From Escherichia phage vB_Ec_Tarrare: a stretch of 40,953 bases of DNA. The stretch is taken from the sequence record OQ507919.1; one strand, given 5' to 3'. A program made the translations under genes and the position numbers. Under the pieces are notes generated by a model. The model worked only from the letters and a program-made list of their open reading frames with translations, was not told the origin of the DNA and did not search any database. Shown here piece after piece: positions 4,029-34,229 of the stretch. Every line of letters starts with the position of its first letter. Position 1 is the first letter of the stretch.

Positions 4029-4051
4029 TAATACGACTCACTATTGAGGAG
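4029..4051 (+). promoter_or_regulatory. phage RNAP promoter (phi1.1A-like)
   Basis: taatacgactcactattgaggag; T7 -17 to -1 consensus except T at -1. Confidence 0.8.
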
Positions 4052-4055
4052 TGAT

Positions 4056-4078
4056 TAATACGACTCACTAATGGGAAA
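4056..4078 (+). promoter_or_regulatory. phage RNAP promoter (phi1.1B-like)
   Basis: taatacgactcactaatgggaaa, in tandem 27 bp downstream of the first promoter. Confidence 0.8.
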
Positions 4079-4176
4079 CCTTAAGGGTCTTAGAGATTTA
4101 ACTTTAAGACCTTTAAGTTCTAATTTAAGATTTAATTTAAGATTACTAAGAGATTAACTTTAAGGAGACTTTAAGT
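4079..4176 (+). other. AT-rich region downstream of tandem promoters; candidate primary replication origin and leader of gene 1.1
   Basis: About 100 bp of low-GC sequence with reiterated tttaag / aatttaag / aactttaag units immediately after phi1.1A/B. In T7 the primary origin occupies this position. Confidence 0.4.
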
Positions 4177-4314: not shown

Positions 4315-4571
4315 TGGGACGTCTATACAGTGGAAACCTAAACGCATTCAAAGGTGCTTGCAATCGTCTCTATCAGATGGACTTTGCGGTAATCGTCAAT
4401 GAGTTCCACGATGCAATGTACCGTCAAGAATGCATGAAGGTACGCATAGAAGACCGAGCAGGGAACATAATCATACAGGACACCTTCTGTCACTATGACG
4501 TAGACGTCTTGTACAACACAGCCACCGCTTGGTTGAACGGTATGGCTGACCAGTTACAACACTGGAAGTAA
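4314..4571 (+). CDS. 1.2: gene 1.2 protein (inhibitor of host dGTP triphosphohydrolase)
   Basis: 85 aa from the ATG at 4314, overlapping the 1.1 stop (taATGg). MGRLYSGNL...QLQHWK matches T7 gp1.2 in length and sequence. Confidence 0.85.
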   Translation: MGRLYSGNLNAFKGACNRLYQMDFAVIVNEFHDAMYRQECMKVRIEDRAGNIIIQDTFCHYDVDVLYNTATAWLNGMADQLQHWK

Positions 4572-5964: not shown

Positions 5965-6048
5965 ATGACTTTCCTGATTATCATCATCACGATCGCTACG
6001 ATCTTTGTGTGCCTTAGCGACGACAATCATCCCGATGGTCATGCTTAA
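5965..6048 (+). CDS. 1.5: gene 1.5-like micro-protein
   Basis: 27 aa, MTFLIIIITIATIFVCLSDDNHPDGHA; hydrophobic N-terminus and a ...SDD..PDGHA tail as in T7 gp1.5 as recalled. Not in the ORF track because under 60 aa. Confidence 0.6.
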   Translation: MTFLIIIITIATIFVCLSDDNHPDGHA

Positions 6049-6068
6049 TAGAACTCACTAATGGAGGA
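6046..6068 (+). promoter_or_regulatory. class II-type phage RNAP promoter
   Basis: taatagaactcactaatggagga. Confidence 0.6.
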
Positions 6069-6072
6069 CAAT

Positions 6073-6333
6073 ATGTTTCGCTTACATTTCAACAAAAGCA
6101 TTAAGATGTTCACAGTTCGCCGCCAAGACCGCTCAATTGTATGCGCGAGCGAACGTCGAGCTAAACTTCCTATTCTTGGTAGTACAATACCTTTGGCACC
6201 TAGCGTCCACATCATCATCACTCGTGGTGACTTTCAGAAAGCAATAGACAAACAACGTCCGGTTCTTAGTGTGGCAGTGACCCGCTTCCCGTTCGTCCGT
6301 CTGTTAATCGAAAGAATCAAGGAGGTGTTCTGA
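6073..6333 (+). CDS. 1.6: gene 1.6-like protein
   Basis: 86 aa from the ATG at 6073; the conserved block [41 protein letters not shown] matches T7 gp1.6 as recalled. Confidence 0.7.
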
Positions 6334-6740
6334 TGGGACTGTTAGATGGTGCAGCGTGGGAAAAAGAAAACCCACCACTAAAAGGAGGCCATACATTGGC
6401 TTGCGATATTAACCGCTTTAATGACGATAGATACCCTTGTACCTGTAACGCTAATTCTTTCAAGGTTAGTGGTAAGAAAGCTACTGTAATCGCTACCGAC
6501 GAAATCGAAGGTGTACAGAAGCCGAGTCACTACTCGTTCTTTGATGGTATCGAAGCTATCGAGATCATTGCGCGGTCTATGACTCGCGAACAGTTTAAAG
6601 GGTACGTATTTGGGAATATTTTGAAGTACCGCTTACGTGCTGGTAAGAAATCCGAATTGGCATACGCTGAGAAAGACTTAGCGAAAGCCAACTTCTACAG
6701 TGAACTCTTTGAGAAACACAAGGATAAATGTTATGCATAA
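6333..6740 (+). CDS. 1.7: gene 1.7 nucleotide kinase homologue (short form)
   Basis: 135 aa. The N-terminus [15 protein letters not shown] and the C-terminal half [71 protein letters not shown] match T7 gp1.7, but a central segment of about 60 residues present in T7 is absent. Confidence 0.8.
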
Positions 6741-6879
6741 CTTCAAGTCTACCCCACCTTCTGACCATCTATCTGATAACTTCACAACGTGCTCAGAGTG
6801 GTGCCGTAAGATGTGGGAAGAAACGTTTGACGATGCGTACATCAAGTTGTATGAACTTTGGAAATCAAGAGGGCAATAA
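6733..6879 (+). CDS. 1.8: gene 1.8 protein
   Basis: 48 aa, [48 protein letters not shown]; near-identical to T7 gp1.8 as recalled; overlaps the 1.7 stop. Confidence 0.8.
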
Positions 6880-6880
6880 T

Positions 6881-7072
6881 ATGTCACATTTAGATACAGG
6901 TTCGCTTCGAGTGGACAACAAGAAGTTTTGGGCTACGGTAGAGACCGCTGCTCAATCGTTTGAGGTTCCTATCTACGCTACTGACTTAGACGATGCGTTA
7001 GAGCTAGCGGAGTGGCAGTATGTACCTGCTGGCTTCGAGGTCACTCGTATTCGTCCAGACGTTCGCGGTTAA
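6881..7072 (+). CDS. 2: gene 2 protein, inhibitor of host RNA polymerase
   Basis: 63 aa from the ATG at 6881, [63 protein letters not shown]; matches T7 gp2. The ORF-track start at 6728 is in frame but upstream of the real start. Confidence 0.85.
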
Positions 7073-7092
7073 TAGGACTCACTAATGGGGAC
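7070..7092 (+). promoter_or_regulatory. class II phage RNAP promoter (phi2.5-like)
   Basis: taataggactcactaatggggac, overlapping the gene 2 stop; the transcript would begin with the hairpin ggggacactcccc. Confidence 0.6.
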
Positions 7093-7133
7093 ACTCCCCG
7101 AATCACTCAATCATTACTTTAAGGAGACTCATT

Positions 7134-7829
7134 ATGGCTAAGAAGATTTTCACCTCTGCGCTGGGTACTGCTGAACCTTACGCTTACATTGCTAAACCTG
7201 ACTACGGCAACGAAGAGCGTGGCTTTGGGAACCCTCGTGGTGTGTACAAAGTTGACCTGACTATTCCCAACAAAGACCCGCGCTGCCAGCGTATGGTCGA
7301 TGAAATCGTGAAGTGTCACGAAGAGGCTTATGCTGCTGCCGTTGAGGAATACGAAGCTAATCCACCTCAGGTAGCTCGTGGTAAGAAGCCACTGCGCCCA
7401 TACGAAGGTGACATGCCGTTCTTCGATAACGGTGACGGTACGACTACCTTTAAGTTTAAGTGCTACGCTTCCTTCCAAGACAAGAAGACCAAAGAGACCA
7501 AACACATTAATCTGGTCGTTGTGGACTCTAAAGGTAAGAAGATGGAAGAAGTGCCTGTTATCGGTGGTGGCTCAAAACTGAAAGTTAAATACTCTCTGGT
7601 TCCTTACAAGTGGAACACTGCTGTAGGTGCAAGCGTTAAGCTGCAATTAGAATCCGTTATGCTGGTCGAATTGGCTACCTTTGGTGGCGGTGAAGACGAT
7701 TGGGCTGATGAAGTCGAAGAGAACGGCTATGTTGCCTCTGGTTCTGCCAAAGCGAGCAAACCACGCGATGAAGAAAGCTGGGAAGAAGACGACTCAGAAG
7801 AACAAGTAGACGAAGACGGAGACTTCTAA
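7134..7829 (+). CDS. 2.5: single-stranded DNA-binding protein
   Basis: 231 aa, MAKKIFTSALGTAEPYAYIAKPDYG..., with the acidic C-terminal tail ...EEDDSEEQVDEDGDF characteristic of T7 gp2.5. Confidence 0.95.
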   Translation: MAKKIFTSALGTAEPYAYIAKPDYGNEERGFGNPRGVYKVDLTIPNKDPRCQRMVDEIVKCHEEAYAAAVEEYEANPPQVARGKKPLRPYEGDMPFFDNGDGTTTFKFKCYASFQDKKTKETKHINLVVVDSKGKKMEEVPVIGGGSKLKVKYSLVPYKWNTAVGASVKLQLESVMLVELATFGGGEDDWADEVEENGYVASGSAKASKPRDEESWEEDDSEEQVDEDGDF

Positions 7830-8284
7830 TGGCTGGCGCATACGCTGCGCGTGGTATCCGAAAGGTCGGGGCATTCCGCTCCGGCCTAGAAGATAAGGTC
7901 TCTAAGCAGCTAGAGGGTAAGGGAGTTAAGTTCGATTATGAACTGTGGAAAATCCCTTATGTAGTCCCTGCAAGTAACCACTTGTACACTCCTGACTTCT
8001 TGTTACCTAACGGCATCTTCATTGAGACCAAGGGTCTATGGGAGAGTGAAGACCGTAAGAAACACCTATTGATTCGCGAACAGTTTCCAGAACTGGACAT
8101 TCGTCTTGTGTTCTCAAGTTCGCGCACTAAGTTATACAAAGGGTCTCCTACAAGTTATGCCGAATGGTGCGAAAAGCATGGCATCTTGTTTGCAGACAAA
8201 TTAATTCCTGTAGCATGGCTGAAAGAACCAAAGAAGGAGGTTCCGTTTGACAAGCTAAAACAATCTAAGGGAGGAAACAAATAA
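7829..8284 (+). CDS. 3: endonuclease I (Holliday junction resolvase)
   Basis: 151 aa; position and length match T7 gp3. Confidence 0.9.
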   Translation: MAGAYAARGIRKVGAFRSGLEDKVSKQLEGKGVKFDYELWKIPYVVPASNHLYTPDFLLPNGIFIETKGLWESEDRKKHLLIREQFPELDIRLVFSSSRTKLYKGSPTSYAEWCEKHGILFADKLIPVAWLKEPKKEVPFDKLKQSKGGNK

Positions 8285-8739
8285 TGGCTCGCGTACAGTT
8301 TAAACCTCGTGCTTCAACCGAAGCTATCTTTGTTCACTGTTCGGCTACAAAGCCAAGTCAGAACGTTGGCGTCCGTGAAATCCGTCAGTGGCATAAAGAG
8401 AAGGGATGGCTGGACATTGGCTACCACTTCGTCATTAAACGTGATGGTACTGTGGAAGCTGGTCGCGATGAGTTGGCTGTAGGTTCCCACGCTAAGGACT
8501 ACAACCACAACTCAATCGGTGTATGCTTGGTTGGCGGTATCGACGATAAAGGTAAGTTCGACGCTAACTTTACACCTGCTCAGATGAATGCACTGCGTAG
8601 CCTACTGACCGAACTGCTGGTTAAGTATGAAGGCTCAGTGCTCCGCGCTCACCACGATGTTGCTCCGAAGGCTTGCCCTTCGTTCGACTTAAAGCGCTGG
8701 TGGGAGAAGAACGAATTGGTCACTTCTGACAGAGGTTAA
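8284..8739 (+). CDS. 3.5: N-acetylmuramoyl-L-alanine amidase (T7 lysozyme, RNAP inhibitor)
   Basis: 151 aa, MARVQFKPRASTEAIFVHCSATKPSQNVGVREIRQWHKEKGWLDIGYHF...; near-identical to T7 lysozyme. Confidence 0.97.
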   Translation: MARVQFKPRASTEAIFVHCSATKPSQNVGVREIRQWHKEKGWLDIGYHFVIKRDGTVEAGRDELAVGSHAKDYNHNSIGVCLVGGIDDKGKFDANFTPAQMNALRSLLTELLVKYEGSVLRAHHDVAPKACPSFDLKRWWEKNELVTSDRG

Positions 8740-8821
8740 TTTGGACATCAATACTCTTATCTATAAGCTGGCTCTGCTGGCATTCGCTGCTTATTGTTTC
8801 CACCTTTGGAGCAAAGCAGAT

Positions 8822-8844
8822 TAATAGAACTCACTAATGGGGAT
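8822..8844 (+). promoter_or_regulatory. class II phage RNAP promoter (phi3.8-like)
   Basis: taatagaactcactaatggggat; the transcript start is followed by the hairpin ggggataccgaaaggcgtcccc. Confidence 0.6.
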
Positions 8845-8884
8845 ACCGAAAGGCGTCCCCTTTGTTCGCGTTGGAGGTTAAATT

Positions 8885-10931
<2,047 letters not shown>

Positions 10932-19095: not shown

Positions 19096-19115
19096 TACGA
19101 CTCACTATTGGGAGA
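19093..19115 (+). promoter_or_regulatory. phage RNAP promoter (phi9)
   Basis: taatacgactcactattgggaga, overlapping the portal stop codon. Confidence 0.9.
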
Positions 19116-19194
19116 CCACGGCTTTGAAATGAGCGCCGTCTTGAGGTTGGAGTCCTCAGTCTCCCTTTAGTCCACTTTATGAAGGAGATTAATA

Positions 19195-20136: not shown

Positions 20137-20159
20137 TAATACGACTCACTATTGGGAGA
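20137..20159 (+). promoter_or_regulatory. phage RNAP promoter (phi10)
   Basis: taatacgactcactattgggaga. Confidence 0.9.
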
Positions 20160-20254
20160 AGGAAACGACTCCCATGAGTCACACATTGAGAACCAACTCG
20201 ATTCAAGTAGTGACTTAACTTTAATTGTGCAATTAACATAAGGAGATATAGATT

Positions 20255-21292
20255 ATGGCAACTATGACTGGTGGACAGAAGCTGGGTACTAACCAAGGTA
20301 AAGGCGCTACAGGTACTGACGCATTGGCGTTGTTCTTGAAGGTGTTTGGTGGTGAGGTACTGACTGCATTCGCTCGTACTTCCGTGACTACCTCTCGTCA
20401 CATGGTTCGCTCCATCTCTAGCGGTAAATCCGCTCAGTTCCCTGTGATTGGGCGCACTCAGGCTGCATACCTGAAACCTGGTGAGAACTTGGACGATATT
20501 CGTAAAGACATCAAGCACACTGAGAAGACCATCAACATTGACGGTTTGCTGACTGCTGACGTTCTGATTTACGATATTGAAGACGCAATGAACCACTATG
20601 ACGTTCGCTCTGAGTACACCTCTCAGCTTGGTGAGTCTCTGGCTATGGCCGCTGATGGTGCTGTTCTGGCTGAGATTGCCGCTCTGTGTAATCTGGCGTC
20701 TGGCTCCAACGAGAACATCGCAGGTCTTGGCTCCGCGAGTGTAATCGAGTTCGCAGAGAAGAAAACTGAGATTACCGATCAGGTTGAGTTAGGTAAGAAG
20801 ATCATTGCTGGTCTGACCAAGGCTCGTGCTGCTCTTACCAAGAACTATGTCCCTGCCTCAGACCGAGTGTTCTTCTGTGACCCTGATAGCTACAGCGCGA
20901 TTCTGGCTGCTCTGATGCCTAACGCTGCAAACTACGCTGCATTGATTGACCCTGAGCGTGGCTCTATCCGCAACGTTATGGGCTTCGAGGTTGTAGAGGT
21001 TCCTCACTTAACCGCTGGTGGTGCTGGTACTAAGCGTGAAGGCACCGATGGTCAACTGCATGGCTTCCCTGCAACTGCTACAGACACCGCTAAGGTAGCT
21101 GTGGACACTGTGGTTGGTGTATTCATGCACCGTTCTGCTGTAGGTACTGTTAAGCTGCGTGACTTGGCTCTGGAACGTGCTCGTCGAGCTAACTACCAAG
21201 CTGACCAGATCATCGCTAAGTACGCTATGGGTCACGGTGGTCTGCGTCCAGAAGCTGCTGGTGCTATCGTTTTCAAAAGCCGTAATTCATGA
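20255..21292 (+). CDS. 10: major capsid protein 10A
   Basis: 345 aa; strong SD (aaggag); collinear with T7 10A. Confidence 0.97.
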   Translation: MATMTGGQKLGTNQGKGATGTDALALFLKVFGGEVLTAFARTSVTTSRHMVRSISSGKSAQFPVIGRTQAAYLKPGENLDDIRKDIKHTEKTINIDGLLTADVLIYDIEDAMNHYDVRSEYTSQLGESLAMAADGAVLAEIAALCNLASGSNENIAGLGSASVIEFAEKKTEITDQVELGKKIIAGLTKARAALTKNYVPASDRVFFCDPDSYSAILAALMPNAANYAALIDPERGSIRNVMGFEVVEVPHLTAGGAGTKREGTDGQLHGFPATATDTAKVAVDTVVGVFMHRSAVGTVKLRDLALERARRANYQADQIIAKYAMGHGGLRPEAAGAIVFKSRNS

Positions 21293-25354: not shown

Positions 25355-25956
25355 TGTGTTGGTTAGCCGCACTTCCAGTTGCTATGGCTGGTGCTCAAGC
25401 TATTAGTGGTCAAGTGGCTCAAGCCAACATGGTTGCTGCCCAAACAGAAGCTGGTCGCCGTCAAGCTATGGAAATCATGAAACAAACAAACATCCAGAAT
25501 GCAGACCTCTCGTTGCAAGCCAGAAGTCGCCTTGAGGAAGCCTCTAGTGAACTTACAGCACAGAACATGCAGAAGGTTCAAGCTATGGGGTCTATCCGAG
25601 CGGCTATAGGTGAGGGAAACCTAGAAGGTGCCTCTCTGGATAGAATCAAACGTGTCACAGAAGGTCAGTTCATTCGTGAGGCCAACATGGTGACTGAGAA
25701 CTATCGTCGTGACTATCAGGCTATCTTTGCGCAACAGCTTGGTGGTACTCAGAGTGCTGCAAGTCAAATCGGAGAGATTTACAAAGGCGAACAGAAACAG
25801 AAGAGTAAGTTACAGCAAGTACTTGACCCTCTGGCTGCTGTGGGTTCATCCTTTGCGTCTCAATATGCATCCGGTGCGTTTGACTCTAAGTCTCGTACAC
25901 CTGCTAAGATTACCGCTGCGACTCCAACCAAAGTAGTCCGTAAAGGAGGTAAGTAA
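25354..25956 (+). CDS. 14: internal virion protein B (gp14)
   Basis: 200 aa from the ATG at 25354 (MCWLAALPVAMAGAQAISGQVAQANM...); matches T7 gp14. Confidence 0.9.
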   Translation: MCWLAALPVAMAGAQAISGQVAQANMVAAQTEAGRRQAMEIMKQTNIQNADLSLQARSRLEEASSELTAQNMQKVQAMGSIRAAIGEGNLEGASLDRIKRVTEGQFIREANMVTENYRRDYQAIFAQQLGGTQSAASQIGEIYKGEQKQKSKLQQVLDPLAAVGSSFASQYASGAFDSKSRTPAKITAATPTKVVRKGGK

Positions 25957-32229: not shown

Positions 32230-32249
32230 TACGACTCACTATTGGGAGA
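32227..32249 (+). promoter_or_regulatory. phage RNAP promoter (phi17)
   Basis: taatacgactcactattgggaga, overlapping the gene 16 stop. Confidence 0.9.
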
Positions 32250-32303
32250 GGAGGTCTAACCACTTCCCTCCCGATTCTTTAAGATTAACTTTAAGGAGGT
32301 CAA

Positions 32304-34229
32304 ATGGCTAACGTAATCAAGACCGTTTTGACTTATCAGCTAAATGGTACTACTCGTGATTTTAATATTCCGTTTGAGTATCTGGCTCGTAAGTTTGTTG
32401 TGGTCACACTGTTAGGTAAAGACCGTAAGGTACTTACTCTGAATACTGATTATCGATTTGCAACTCGTACTACCATCTCCACCACTAAGGCTTGGGGACA
32501 GGCAGATGGTTACACTCACATTGAGTTACGCCGAAACACCTCAGCGACTGAACGCTTGGTGGACTTTACTGACGGTTCGATTCTACGCGCGTATGACCTG
32601 AACGTTGCTCAGATTCAGACTATGCATATTGCAGAAGAAGCTCGTGACCTTACTGCTGATACTATCGGTGTCAACAACAATGGGGACTTAGATGCTCGAA
32701 ACCGTAAGATTGTAAACTTGGCAGACGCGGTTAACCCTCGTGATGCTGTCCCTCTAGGTCAGATTCAGGGGATAAACCAGAATGCTTGGCAAGCACGAAA
32801 TGAGGCTCAACAGTTCAGAAACCAAGCTGAGACCTTTAAGAACCAAGCCCAAGGTTTCCGTAACGAAGCAGAAGCGTTCCGAAACACTACTAACCAGAAC
32901 GCACAGACTACTACAGCCGATCGTGCAGCCGCTCTACAGTCAAAGGAAGAAGCTGAGCGCGCTCGTGCTGCTGCCCAACAGTCACAACAACAGGCTGCTG
33001 CATCTCAGACAGCCGCAAGTAACTCAGCCGCTGAGGCTAAGCGTGAAGCAGATCGCTCCAAAACAGAGGCTGATAGGGCTAAAGTAGAGGCCGATAAGTT
33101 AGGAAACTGGAACCAACTTGCAGGTACTGTGGATAACGTGACTGGTACTAGCGTGACCTTTAAGGACAAGGTAGGTGCTCTAGGTGGGTTCGTATCGGCT
33201 ACTCCTGATGGATACCGATTGAAGTACACTAACTTCTCTACGATTCTACGTCAAGACGCTAATGCGTTCTACATACTGACTACCAATAAGGGAGATGTTA
33301 ACGGGCCATTCAACTCGCTACGTCCTATGTACATTGACAACGCATCGGGATGGGTGACGTTTGGTAACGGTGCGGGTGTTAATGGTAGACTCACTACGAC
33401 AGAGGGTGTTGCGGTTCCTAACTCTAAGATGTACTTCAACAAGAGCCTGATTCAGTTGGAGAGCCAGAACTTCACAGACAGGGCGGTGAACATGCGAGTT
33501 TGGGGTAACGCCTCAGGTCGTAATAACGTGTGTGAATGGGGCGATGCTCACGGTTGGCTGATGTATGTACAGCGTAGGGATTGGAATGCTAACGCTGGGT
33601 CAAACATCCAGTTAAGTGTTAACGGACAGGTGGTGGCTAATAACATTATATCCACTGGAGGGGCTTACTTCCAGAATGGACATGCTGTAACGCTGGAATC
33701 TGCGTCCAATATGGCACACTACATCATCTCTAAGGATGGCGGCAGGAACAACTGGTACGTTGGTCGTGGGACTAATGGCAACAATGACGTCGCTCTCCAC
33801 TCTTATGTACACGGAACTACTCTTTCTCTACGCCAGAACTATGCGCAGGTCAACAAGCACTTCTATGTAGGCTCCGCTGTAGTAGCAACTGATGGTAACG
33901 TTCAGGGTACTAAATGGGGCGGTAAGTGGCTTGATGTGTTCCTGAATGATACATACATTAAGAAGACCAAAGCTTGGACTCAGGTATGGTCTGGAAGTGC
34001 TGGTGGTGGTGTCAGTGTGACCGTATCCCAAGACTTGCGATTCCGTAATATCTGGATTAAGTGCGCCAACAACTCTTGGAACCACTTCCGTACAGGCCCT
34101 GATGGTATTTACTTCATTGCGTCTGATGGTGGCTGGTTGCGATTCCAGATTCACTCCAACGGTAGAGGCTTCAAGAACATTGCAGACAGTCGCTCTGTTC
34201 CTCAGGCTATCATGGTGGAGAACGAATAA
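32304..34229 (+). CDS. 17: tail fibre protein
   Basis: 641 aa; N-terminal tail-attachment domain (MANVIKTVLTYQLNGTTRDFNIPFEYLARKFVVVTL) and C-terminal tip (...WIKCANNSWNHFRTGPDGIYFIASDGGWLRFQIHSNGRGFKNIADSRSVPQAIMVENE) match T7 gp17; the central part differs and is longer. Confidence 0.95.
   Translation: MANVIKTVLTYQLNGTTRDFNIPFEYLARKFVVVTLLGKDRKVLTLNTDYRFATRTTISTTKAWGQADGYTHIELRRNTSATERLVDFTDGSILRAYDLNVAQIQTMHIAEEARDLTADTIGVNNNGDLDARNRKIVNLADAVNPRDAVPLGQIQGINQNAWQARNEAQQFRNQAETFKNQAQGFRNEAEAFRNTTNQNAQTTTADRAAALQSKEEAERARAAAQQSQQQAAASQTAASNSAAEAKREADRSKTEADRAKVEADKLGNWNQLAGTVDNVTGTSVTFKDKVGALGGFVSATPDGYRLKYTNFSTILRQDANAFYILTTNKGDVNGPFNSLRPMYIDNASGWVTFGNGAGVNGRLTTTEGVAVPNSKMYFNKSLIQLESQNFTDRAVNMRVWGNASGRNNVCEWGDAHGWLMYVQRRDWNANAGSNIQLSVNGQVVANNIISTGGAYFQNGHAVTLESASNMAHYIISKDGGRNNWYVGRGTNGNNDVALHSYVHGTTLSLRQNYAQVNKHFYVGSAVVATDGNVQGTKWGGKWLDVFLNDTYIKKTKAWTQVWSGSAGGGVSVTVSQDLRFRNIWIKCANNSWNHFRTGPDGIYFIASDGGWLRFQIHSNGRGFKNIADSRSVPQAIMVENE

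What the first reader, a model, noticed from the sequence alone, without database searches (positions are those of the whole stretch)
7087..8860. Class II transcripts from the phi2.5- and phi3.8-like promoters begin with GGGGA...UCCCC hairpins
Directly at +1 the transcripts read ggggacactcccc (7087-7099) and ggggataccgaaaggcgtcccc (8839-8860). Stable 5'-terminal hairpins can protect mRNA from 5' decay or modulate promoter clearance; the paired arrangement at two promoters suggests selection.
Basis: seen in the sequence. Interest (0 to 1): 0.2.

Follow-up and report, generated by a model that had tools for sequence, protein, structure and literature searches.

The report
Conserved hairpins starting T7-like phage transcripts
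Two small RNA hairpins begin exactly at the first transcribed base of two promoters in a T7 relative. They are real and conserved, but they match elements already known in T7 and T3 (5'-terminal stem-loops and the R3.8 RNase III site), so the finding is ordinary.

Summary
The window is a T7-like phage genome: about 80-83% nucleotide identity to T7, an RNA polymerase 88% identical with an identical specificity loop, and 16 T7-type promoters. They fold as reported (-6.4 and -12.5 kcal/mol).

On its own the phi2.5 hairpin is only marginally better than chance (p about 0.1). Conservation makes the case. All 74 related loci with a promoter before gene 2.5 keep a hairpin closed by +1, with compensatory changes. 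All 21 loci with a phi3.8-type promoter do likewise.

The feature is not peculiar to these two promoters or to class II. In both this phage and T7, the first three bases are paired with probability about 1.0 at phi2.5, 3.8, 9, 10 and 17, and are open at phi6.5, 13 and OR.

The T7 phi10 version is a published mRNA stabiliser. The phi3.8 hairpin is annotated in T3 as the RNase III site R3.8, and read-through RNA extends it into an 18-20 bp helix using the promoter itself.

Verdict: observation confirmed, selection supported, 5'-protection plausible for phi2.5, interpretation incomplete for phi3.8. This is a new member of a known kind, of low interest.

The parts
7070..7092 (+). phi2.5-like phage RNA polymerase promoter (-17..+6), +1 = 7087
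   Evidence: Matches the T7 promoter core. Gene 2.5 (96% identical to T7 gp2.5) starts 47 nt downstream.
7087..7099 (+). 5'-terminal hairpin of the phi2.5 transcript: GGGGA-CAC-UCCCC, 5 bp, closed by +1
   Evidence: -6.4 kcal/mol. Pairing probability of +1..+3 is 1.00. An orthologous hairpin is present in all 74 related loci that have this promoter, with compensatory changes.
7134..7829 (+). gene 2.5 (single-stranded DNA-binding protein), first gene of the phi2.5 transcript
   Evidence: 231 aa, 96% identical to T7 gp2.5.
8822..8844 (+). phi3.8-like phage RNA polymerase promoter (-17..+6), +1 = 8839
   Evidence: One mismatch from the phi2.5-like promoter. It lies between gene 3.5 and gene 3.8, as in T7.
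8839..8860 (+). 5'-terminal hairpin of the phi3.8 transcript: GGGGAU-A-CC-GAAA-GG-C-GUCCCC. Also the upper stem of the R3.8-like RNase III site.
   Evidence: -12.5 kcal/mol; p <= 0.001 against the null. Conserved in 21 related loci. The T3 orthologue is annotated as RNase III site R3.8.
8822..8873 (+). Extended helix that only read-through RNA can form. UAAU (8822-8825) pairs with GUUG (8870-8873), GAAC (8827-8830) with GUUC (8864-8867), AA (8836-8837) with UU (8862-8863), around the hairpin, with a 5-nt internal loop UCACU.
   Evidence: The MFE fold of -20..+40 has the same architecture as the T7 phi3.8/R3.8 region. The lower stem is 73% paired across 15 relatives.
8885..9250 (+). gene 3.8 (HNH endonuclease homologue), first gene of the phi3.8 transcript
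   Evidence: 121 aa, 82% identical to T7 gp3.8.
19110..19165 (+). phi9 transcript start: long-range stem closed by +1, GGGAGAC (+1..+7) with GUCUCCC (+50..+56), enclosing two hairpins
   Evidence: Leader MFE fold. Pairing probability of +1..+3 is 1.00, as for T7 phi9.
20154..20173 (+). phi10 transcript 5'-terminal hairpin GGGAG...CUCCC
   Evidence: -8.2 kcal/mol, p 0.024. Positional counterpart of the T7 phi10 stem-loop, a known mRNA stabiliser.
32244..32272 (+). phi17 transcript 5'-terminal hairpin GGGAGAGGAGG...CUUCCCUCCC
   Evidence: -15.9 kcal/mol, p <= 0.001. T7 phi17 has a different hairpin closed by +1 at the same place.

Best explanation
Both elements are RNA hairpins that include the very first transcribed nucleotide of a phage RNA polymerase promoter. 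They are the orthologues of the structures at T7 phi2.5 and phi3.8.

Shown here: position, stability, conservation, compensatory change, and strand-specific G-U pairs.

Inferred for phi2.5 (7087-7099): burying the 5'-triphosphate end in a helix denies E. coli RppH and the 5' sensor of RNase E the single-stranded end they need. This would prolong the life of the mRNA that starts with the abundant protein gp2.5, as published for the T7 phi10 stem-loop and the ompA leader.

Inferred for phi3.8 (8839-8860): the hairpin has two identities.
- On RNA started at phi3.8 it is the same kind of 5' cap-like hairpin.
- On RNA reading through from upstream promoters, the promoter's own -17..-1 sequence pairs with the conserved UUUGUUCGCGUUG downstream. 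This extends the hairpin to about 18-20 bp with an internal loop, which is the R3.8 RNase III processing site. A cut on its 3' side would leave the upstream 2.5-3.5 mRNA ending in a protective 3' hairpin.
For: Position. The hairpins begin at +1 by alignment to T7's annotated starts, and the polymerase specificity loop is identical.

phi2.5 conservation. All 74 loci with a promoter before gene 2.5 keep a hairpin closed by +1 with no unpaired 5' nucleotide. The stems differ between clades:
- AGGGA/UCCCU
- GGGGA/UCCCC
- AGGGAG/CUCCCU
- GGGG/CCCC
- GGGACA/UGUCCC, kept even around a 36-38 nt insertion in the loop
- GGGAGAC/GUUUCCC
Pair 1 is A-U, G-C or G-U. Pair 4 is A-U or G-C. Pair 5 is A-U, G-C, C-G or G-U. 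Energy p-values combined over 8 clades by Fisher's method give 0.0016.

phi3.8 conservation. 21 loci keep the hairpin. The upper helix is 94% paired, with 3 pairs changed on both sides. Pairing in register is 85% against at most 52% when the 3' partners are slid. L011 and L073 lost the lower-stem partner but kept the hairpin.

RNA strand. G-U pairs (window U6-G17, T7 G5-U17, L003 G1-U14) would be mismatches on the opposite strand.

Compensatory change in this phage. Relative to T7, both promoters acquired a GGGGA start and both 3' arms became UCCCC. At phi2.5, +1 A to G is matched by U to C. At phi3.8, an added G is matched by an added C.

Same promoters in both phages. phi2.5, 3.8, 9, 10 and 17 have paired 5' ends (probability 1.0 in the window, 0.91-1.00 in T7). 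phi6.5, 13 and OR have open ones (0.01-0.26). K11 shows the same at phi2.5, the promoter after gene 3.5, phi9, phi10 and phi17.

Precedent. The 21-nt phi10 stem-loop is described as a well-characterised stabilising element. A review explains the stabilising effect of 5' structure through RppH and RNase E.

R3.8. The T3 RefSeq annotates 10616..10642, which is -4..+23 of phi3.8, as 'RNase III recognition site R3.8'. In T7 the phi3.8 start lies just upstream of the R3.8 cut. The extended helix folds in T7 and in the window.
Against: - No half-life or 5'-end data exist for this phage.
- The phi2.5 hairpin alone is only marginally better than chance by energy (p about 0.1).
- In the T3 group it shrinks to 3 bp (-2.0 kcal/mol), so a strong hairpin is not indispensable there.
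- T7 messages are generally stable, and T7 grows without RNase III (statement in PMC6938266), so the fitness effect may be small.
- If RNase III also cuts phi3.8-initiated RNA 3' of the hairpin, the hairpin cannot protect that mRNA.
- The window's extension has a U-U mismatch at -1/+23, and its lower stem is only 4+4 bp.
- The lower stem is absent in the T3 group.
Confidence: 0.6

Rival explanations
1. The phi3.8 hairpin exists only as the RNase III site R3.8. It processes polycistronic read-through RNA and leaves a 3' hairpin on the upstream 2.5-3.5 message. Its coincidence with +1 is a by-product of promoter and site overlapping, and it does nothing for the 5' end of phi3.8 transcripts.
For: - T3 annotation of the same element as R3.8.
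- The cleavage site lies just downstream of the phi3.8 start in T7.
- The AAA/UUU extension and the UUUGUUCGC tail are conserved.
- The extended helix folds in T7 and in the window.
Against: - The hairpin is kept, still closed by +1, in L011 and L073 where the lower-stem partner was replaced.
- Near-identical hairpins sit at promoters with no RNase III site: T7 phi10, and K11 phi9 and phi17.
- The window's added G at +1 is matched by an added C, which keeps the first nucleotide paired.
- This does not explain phi2.5, which has no extended helix.
Confidence: 0.25
2. The hairpins act during transcription. Folding of the nascent 5' end as it leaves the polymerase (around +9 to +14) would help strip RNA from the template and drive the switch from abortive initiation to elongation at these weaker class II promoters.
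For: - The hairpins begin at +1 and are complete by +13 and +22.
- The two promoters deviate from the class III consensus.
Against: - Nothing tested here bears on it directly.
- The same structures occur on strong class III promoters phi10 and phi17, and at phi9 the partner of +1 is 50 nt away, far too late for promoter escape.
- In L023 and L032 the stem closes around a 36-38 nt insertion.
Confidence: 0.07
3. There is no function. The G-rich initial transcribed sequence (GGGGA) pairs with a chance pyrimidine run, and the resemblance between the two promoters reflects copying of one promoter cassette.
For: - Stems of >=5 bp closed by +1 arise by chance at about 9% per promoter when G-U is allowed.
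- The phi2.5 hairpin has p about 0.1 by energy.
- The two promoters differ at one of 22 positions.
Against: - The feature is conserved at the same orthologous promoters in T7, K11 and more than 70 metagenomic relatives despite different stem sequences and compensatory changes.
- Pairing probabilities are bimodal, about 1.0 or below 0.3 against null means of about 0.5.
Confidence: 0.05
4. The phi3.8 hairpin followed by UUUGUU is a weak intrinsic terminator or attenuator. It would lower read-through into genes 3.8-6.3, explaining the drop in RNA abundance after R3.8 seen in T7.
For: - A G+C-rich hairpin is followed directly by the conserved UUUGUUCGC.
- RNA-seq coverage in T7 falls for at least 500 bp after this point although no terminator is annotated there.
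Against: - The U tract is short and interrupted.
- The pattern scan flagged no terminator here, although the hairpin's mismatch and 10-nt interior lie outside that scan's rules.
- phi2.5 has no U tract.
- The authors explain the drop by degradation.
Confidence: 0.05

Closest known systems
T7 phi10 (gene 10 leader) 5'-terminal stem-loop, GGGAGACCACAACGGUUUCCC
   Same: A hairpin closed by +1 of a T7-type promoter, upstream of a separate ribosome-binding site. It is described as a stabilising element (Mertens 1996 and Rosenberg 1987, as cited in PMC2254391). The window has its own version at phi10, and T7 phi3.8 differs from it by one base.
   Different: Different sequence and shorter stems: 5 bp at phi2.5, and 6+2 bp with a GAAA tetraloop at phi3.8. 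No stability data exist for the window's hairpins.
T7 phi2.5 and phi3.8 initial transcribed hairpins (AGGGAAGACUCCCU and GGGAGACCACAGCGGUUUCCC)
   Same: Direct orthologues by synteny, both closed by +1, with similar energies: -5.5 and -12.2 in T7 against -6.4 and -12.5 here.
   Different: The window starts both with GGGGA and ends both with UCCCC. phi2.5 starts with G instead of T7's A. The loops differ (CAC against AGAC, GAAA against ACAGC).
RNase III processing site R3.8 of T7 and T3
   Same: Same position between genes 3.5 and 3.8, overlapping the phi3.8 start. The T3 record annotates -4..+23 as the site. The window keeps the hairpin, the AA/UU extension, the UUUGUUCGC tail and a T7-type lower stem.
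   Different: There is a U-U mismatch at -1/+23 because -1 is T in this phage. An A/C mismatch lies inside the hairpin. Cleavage has not been tested.
E. coli ompA and papA 5' stem-loops (5'-terminal base pairing that blocks RppH- and RNase E-dependent decay)
   Same: The proposed mechanism is the same: a helix at the extreme 5' end, with essentially no unpaired 5' nucleotides.
   Different: Those are host transcripts made by the host polymerase. They are not homologous in sequence or origin.

Membership tests
T7-group 5'-terminal stem-loop (phi10 type) | Starts at +1 of a phage RNA polymerase promoter, with no or almost no unpaired 5' nucleotides | tested here: met
   +1 = 7087 and 8839 by alignment to T7's annotated starts. 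Both stems include nucleotide 1.
T7-group 5'-terminal stem-loop (phi10 type) | Thermodynamically stable hairpin that dominates the ensemble of the leader | tested here: met
   -6.4 and -12.5 kcal/mol. Both are kept in the centroid of 50-nt folds. Pairing probability of +1..+3 is 1.00.
T7-group 5'-terminal stem-loop (phi10 type) | Pairing conserved in relatives through compensatory change | tested here: met
   phi2.5: 74 loci with at least 8 stem types. phi3.8: upper helix 94% paired, 3 pairs changed on both sides.
T7-group 5'-terminal stem-loop (phi10 type) | Lengthens mRNA half-life | not testable with these tools
   Needs decay measurements. Only the T7 phi10 precedent is available.
RNase III site R3.8 (T7/T3) | Lies between genes 3.5 and 3.8, overlapping the phi3.8 start | tested here: met
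   Window genes 3.5 (8284-8739) and 3.8 (8885-9250) flank it. The T3 annotation places R3.8 at -4..+23 of phi3.8. In T7 the cut is just downstream of the start.
RNase III site R3.8 (T7/T3) | About two turns of double-stranded RNA with an internal loop in read-through RNA | tested here: inconclusive
   The window folds to 4+4+2+6+2 bp with a 5-nt internal loop, a U-U mismatch and an A/C mismatch. T7 gives 20 bp. The lower stem is 73% paired across relatives and absent in the T3 group.
RNase III site R3.8 (T7/T3) | Cleaved by host RNase III | not testable with these tools
   Needs an in vitro cleavage assay or rnc+/rnc- end mapping.
Intrinsic (hairpin plus U-run) terminator | G+C-rich hairpin followed directly by a run of U | tested here: not met
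   phi2.5 is followed by GAAUCA. phi3.8 is followed by UUUGUU only, and the scan did not flag it.
Any curated RNA family (Rfam 15) | Match at the gathering score | tested here: not met
   No match anywhere in the window.

The most novel reading that the evidence does not exclude
The fate of the same downstream genes may depend on which promoter made the RNA. Half of the R3.8 RNase III substrate is the phi3.8 promoter sequence itself. Only read-through RNA can form the full helix and be cut, which would leave an exposed monophosphate 5' end. RNA started at phi3.8 lacks that half and keeps a protective 5' hairpin.

More broadly, T7-group transcripts may fall into three mutually exclusive, conserved 5'-end designs that set message lifetimes:
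- a hairpin closed by +1 (phi2.5, 3.8, 9, 10, 17);
- an RNase III site just downstream (phi1.1, 1.3, 6.5, 13);
- a Shine-Dalgarno sequence at +1..+5 with the start codon at +11..+14.
Probability: 0.25. Interest if true: 0.4.

Novelty: new member of a known kind. Interest (0 to 1): 0.15.

Why it matters
It matters little beyond this phage. The work shows that hairpins closed by +1 are a conserved, selected part of a defined subset of promoter cassettes in T7-like phages, extending to about +20. Those cassettes are phi2.5, 3.8, 9, 10 and 17.

There are three practical uses:
- annotating T7-like genomes;
- choosing leaders for T7-based expression;
- modelling phage mRNA lifetimes.

The overlap of a promoter with an RNase III site at phi3.8 is a neat, testable case in which the promoter of origin could decide RNA fate. 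The components are textbook T7 biology.

Tried and rejected
- MAFFT alignment of the phi2.5 region (A2) put the 3' arms out of register because loop lengths differ. I did not use it for pair counts. Instead I anchored the arms on +1 and its partner in a script. That anchoring favours pair 1.
- A simple count of contiguous stems closed by +1, allowing G-U, was uninformative: about 9% chance per promoter, 4 observed against 1.4 expected, P = 0.05.
- Rfam gave no match. The terminator scan found nothing at either site.
- No T7 record in the collection annotates RNase III sites. Only the T3 RefSeq does. The T7 R3.8 coordinate I recall (about 11203) could not be verified.
- Literature searches for an explicit description of the phi2.5 or phi3.8 5' hairpins found none in the held library. 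Look-ups of the phiYeO3-12 genome paper and, under a PMC id recalled from memory, the T7 refactoring paper failed. Dunn and Studier 1983 is not held.
- Considered and dropped by inspection only, with no statistical test:
  - T7 primase recognition sites inside the stems: GACAC is present at phi2.5, but no such site is conserved at phi3.8.
  - The class II pause/termination motif ATCTGTT: CTTTGTT differs at two positions.
  - A DNA-level cruciform or protein-binding site: the G-U pairs make the structure strand-specific.
Full report
**What the window is.** Megablast places it among T7-like phages (Studiervirinae), with T7 itself the best hit at about 83% identity over 6000-10000 and about 80% over the first 25 kb. 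No closer relative is in the phage collection.

- The RNA polymerase is 88% identical to T7 RNAP, and the core of its specificity loop is unchanged.
- A scan with the T7 promoter core finds 16 promoters, all on the + strand, at the positions expected from T7 gene order.
- Proteins around the finding are 82-96% identical to T7 gp2.5, gp3, gp3.5, gp3.8 and gp4.

**The observation.** GGGGACACTCCCC is at 7087-7099 and GGGGATACCGAAAGGCGTCCCC at 8839-8860. Each follows a 17-nt promoter core directly. Alignment with T7's annotated starts (9107 and 11180) makes the first G of each +1.

- The first folds as 5 bp with a 3-nt loop (-6.4 kcal/mol).
- The second folds as 6 bp, an A/C mismatch, and 2 bp closing a GAAA tetraloop (-12.5 kcal/mol).
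- Both survive in the centroid of 50-nt folds.
- Both lie in intergenic leaders of 47 and 46 nt, well upstream of the ribosome-binding sites. They do not mask translation signals.

**Is it more than chance?** Within this one sequence the answer is mixed.

- I kept +1..+6 (fixed by the promoter) and drew the rest from the genome. An equally stable hairpin closed by +1 then appears with p <= 0.001 for phi3.8 but p about 0.10 for phi2.5.
- Counting stems of at least 5 bp closed by +1, with G-U allowed, is useless. A GGG start pairs with any pyrimidine run, giving about 9% per promoter.
- The pairing probability of +1..+3 in the first 60 nt is sharper. It is 1.00 for both, reached by none of 300 genomic nulls and about 1% of shuffles.

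**Comparative evidence settles it.** I fetched 80 loci encoding gp2.5 relatives.

For phi2.5:
- 74 loci have a recognisable promoter in front of the gene, and every one starts its transcript with a hairpin closed by +1.
- Stems differ by clade: AGGGA/UCCCU (T7), GGGGA/UCCCU, AGGGAG/CUCCCU, GGGAG/CUCCC, GGGG/CCCC, GGG/CCC (T3 group, weak), GGGACA/UGUCCC (K11 group) and GGGAGAC/GUUUCCC.
- The K11-group stem is retained even around a 36-38 nt insertion in the loop.
- Loops vary freely, while pairs 1, 4, 5 and 6 change on both sides.

For phi3.8:
- 21 loci from the T7 and T3 groups keep a hairpin closed by +1.
- On the alignment, the upper helix is 94% paired with three pairs changed on both sides. 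The named structure pairs 85% of cells against at most 52% when the partners are slid.

Two further points:
- G-U pairs (U6-G17 here, G5-U17 in T7) make the structure specific to the transcribed strand.
- In this phage both promoters acquired a GGGGA start, and both 3' arms changed to UCCCC. This is the compensatory signature expected if pairing of the first nucleotide matters.

**It is not a two-promoter, class II feature.**

- In the window, hairpins closed by +1 also sit at phi10 (20154-20173, -8.2) and phi17 (32244-32272, -15.9). phi9 closes +1..+7 onto +50..+56.
- T7 shows hairpins at the same orthologous promoters with different sequences.
- Pairing probability of the first three bases is bimodal in both phages. 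It is about 1.0 at phi2.5, 3.8, 9, 10 and 17, and 0.01-0.26 at phi6.5, 13 and OR.
- K11 has such hairpins at phi2.5, the promoter after gene 3.5, phi9 and phi17, plus a long-range pairing at phi10. T3 has them at phi1.05, 3.8 and 9, with a weak one at 2.5.
- The remaining class II promoters in the window (5710, 5938, 6046, 10932) have GGAGG at +1..+5 and a start codon at +11 to +14, which leaves no room for a hairpin.

**What is known.** The 21-nt phi10 stem-loop is described as a well-characterised stabilising element, citing Mertens et al. 1996 and Rosenberg et al. 1987, and inserting it quadrupled reporter yield (PMC2254391). The mechanism in E. coli is established. RppH and the RNase E 5' sensor need a single-stranded 5' end, which explains the long-known stabilising effect of 5' structure (PMC3997798).

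**The phi3.8 hairpin has a second identity.**

- The T3 RefSeq annotates 10616..10642 as 'RNase III recognition site R3.8'. It overlaps promoter phi3.8 (10603..10625, +1 = 10620). The element is UAAA + GGGAGACUUAACGUUUCCC + UUUG, meaning the +1 hairpin extended by -4..-1 pairing with the following U run.
- For T7, Jack et al. state that the phi3.8 start lies just upstream of the R3.8 cleavage site, and that RNA coverage falls for at least 500 bp beyond it (PMC6938266).
- Folding read-through RNA gives a 20-bp helix in T7. Promoter bases -17..-9 pair with GUUCGCAUUG, a 5-nt internal loop UCACU follows, then AAA/UUU, then the hairpin.
- The window has the same architecture across 8822-8873, weakened by a U-U mismatch at -1/+23.
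- The tail UUUGUUCGC is conserved from T7 to T3.
- The lower stem is specific to the T7 lineage (73% paired) and absent in the T3 group. Two loci that replaced it kept the hairpin.
- RNA started at phi3.8 lacks the 5' half of this helix and folds only the hairpin.

**Mechanism, with what is shown and what is inferred.**

- Shown: two conserved, strand-specific RNA hairpins that include nucleotide +1, and an RNase III-type extended helix at phi3.8 in read-through RNA.
- Inferred: at phi2.5 the hairpin protects the 5' end from RppH- and RNase E-dependent decay.
- Inferred: at phi3.8 the element is the R3.8 processing site for read-through RNA, leaving a 3' hairpin on the upstream message, and a 5' hairpin for RNA started there.
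- Unknown: whether RNase III also trims phi3.8-initiated RNA. If it does, 5' protection fails for that transcript.

**Rivals.**

- Promoter clearance is unsupported and fits poorly with phi9, whose partner arm is 50 nt away, and with stems closing around 36-38 nt insertions.
- Chance is excluded by the comparative data.
- A terminator role is weak: the U tract is short and interrupted, and phi2.5 has none.

**Verdict.** The elements are orthologues of T7 and T3 features known since the 1980s. I score interest at 0.15 and class the finding as a new member of a known kind. The most novel surviving reading is promoter-of-origin-dependent RNA fate at phi3.8/R3.8, together with a three-way partition of 5'-end designs across T7-group promoters.

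Noticed in passing
window promoters at 4029, 4056, 5710, 5938, 6046, 7070, 8822, 10932, 15801, 19093, 20137, 24493, 32227, 39134, 40049 (exception: 4569): Position -1 is T in 15 of the 16 promoters (CACTATT|G or CACTAAT|G). The phi1.3-like promoter at 4569 has C. T7 has A at -1 in every promoter except phi2.5. Several metagenomic relatives (L005, L013, L030) share CACTATT|GGG, so this lineage has a slightly shifted promoter consensus.
   Followed up: partly
window 8741-8824: An 82-nt spacer separates the gene 3.5 stop from the phi3.8 promoter, against about 2 nt in T7. It holds a possible 27-codon TTG-start ORF (LDINTLIYKLALLAFAAYCFHLWSKAD) with GAGG 5 nt upstream and a stop inside the promoter's TAATAG. 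The peptide is hydrophobic and unrelated to T3 gp3.7, which occupies the same slot. The spacer also folds to -18.7 kcal/mol.
   Followed up: partly
window 4029-4077: The phi1.1A- and phi1.1B-like promoters are only 27 nt apart, against 75 nt in T7. The phi1.1A transcript therefore begins by copying the phi1.1B promoter. An R1.1-like long hairpin follows at about 4079-4117.
   Followed up: no
window 5710, 5938, 6046, 10932: Four class II promoters have GGAGG at +1..+5 and a start codon at +11 to +14. The transcript therefore starts with its own Shine-Dalgarno sequence. The window has three such promoters in the 1.4-1.7 region where T7 has two (phi1.5 and phi1.6).
   Followed up: partly
window 7829: Gene 3 follows gene 2.5 directly. 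T7 gene 2.8 (a homing-type endonuclease) is absent from this phage.
   Followed up: no
L085 (T7) 11180 and 22904; L087 (K11) phi9 at 20241 and phi17 at 33175: Promoter-plus-hairpin cassettes recur within a genome. T7 phi3.8 and phi10 hairpins differ by one base. K11 phi9 and phi17 carry the identical 20-nt hairpin GGGAGACCGAUUGGUUUCCC. The window's phi2.5 and phi3.8 share GGGGA/UCCCC. This suggests copying or gene conversion of units reaching to about +20.
   Followed up: partly
window 20154-20255: The gene 10 leader is 101 nt, against 63 nt in T7. After the hairpin closed by +1 it contains a second strong hairpin at about +22..+64.
   Followed up: no
L086 (T3) about 25474-25510: The T3 phi13 transcript starts GGGAGACACTAATAGATACGAA and then has a run of about 15 G. 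This is an unusual homopolymer inside the annotated R13/phi13 region.
   Followed up: no
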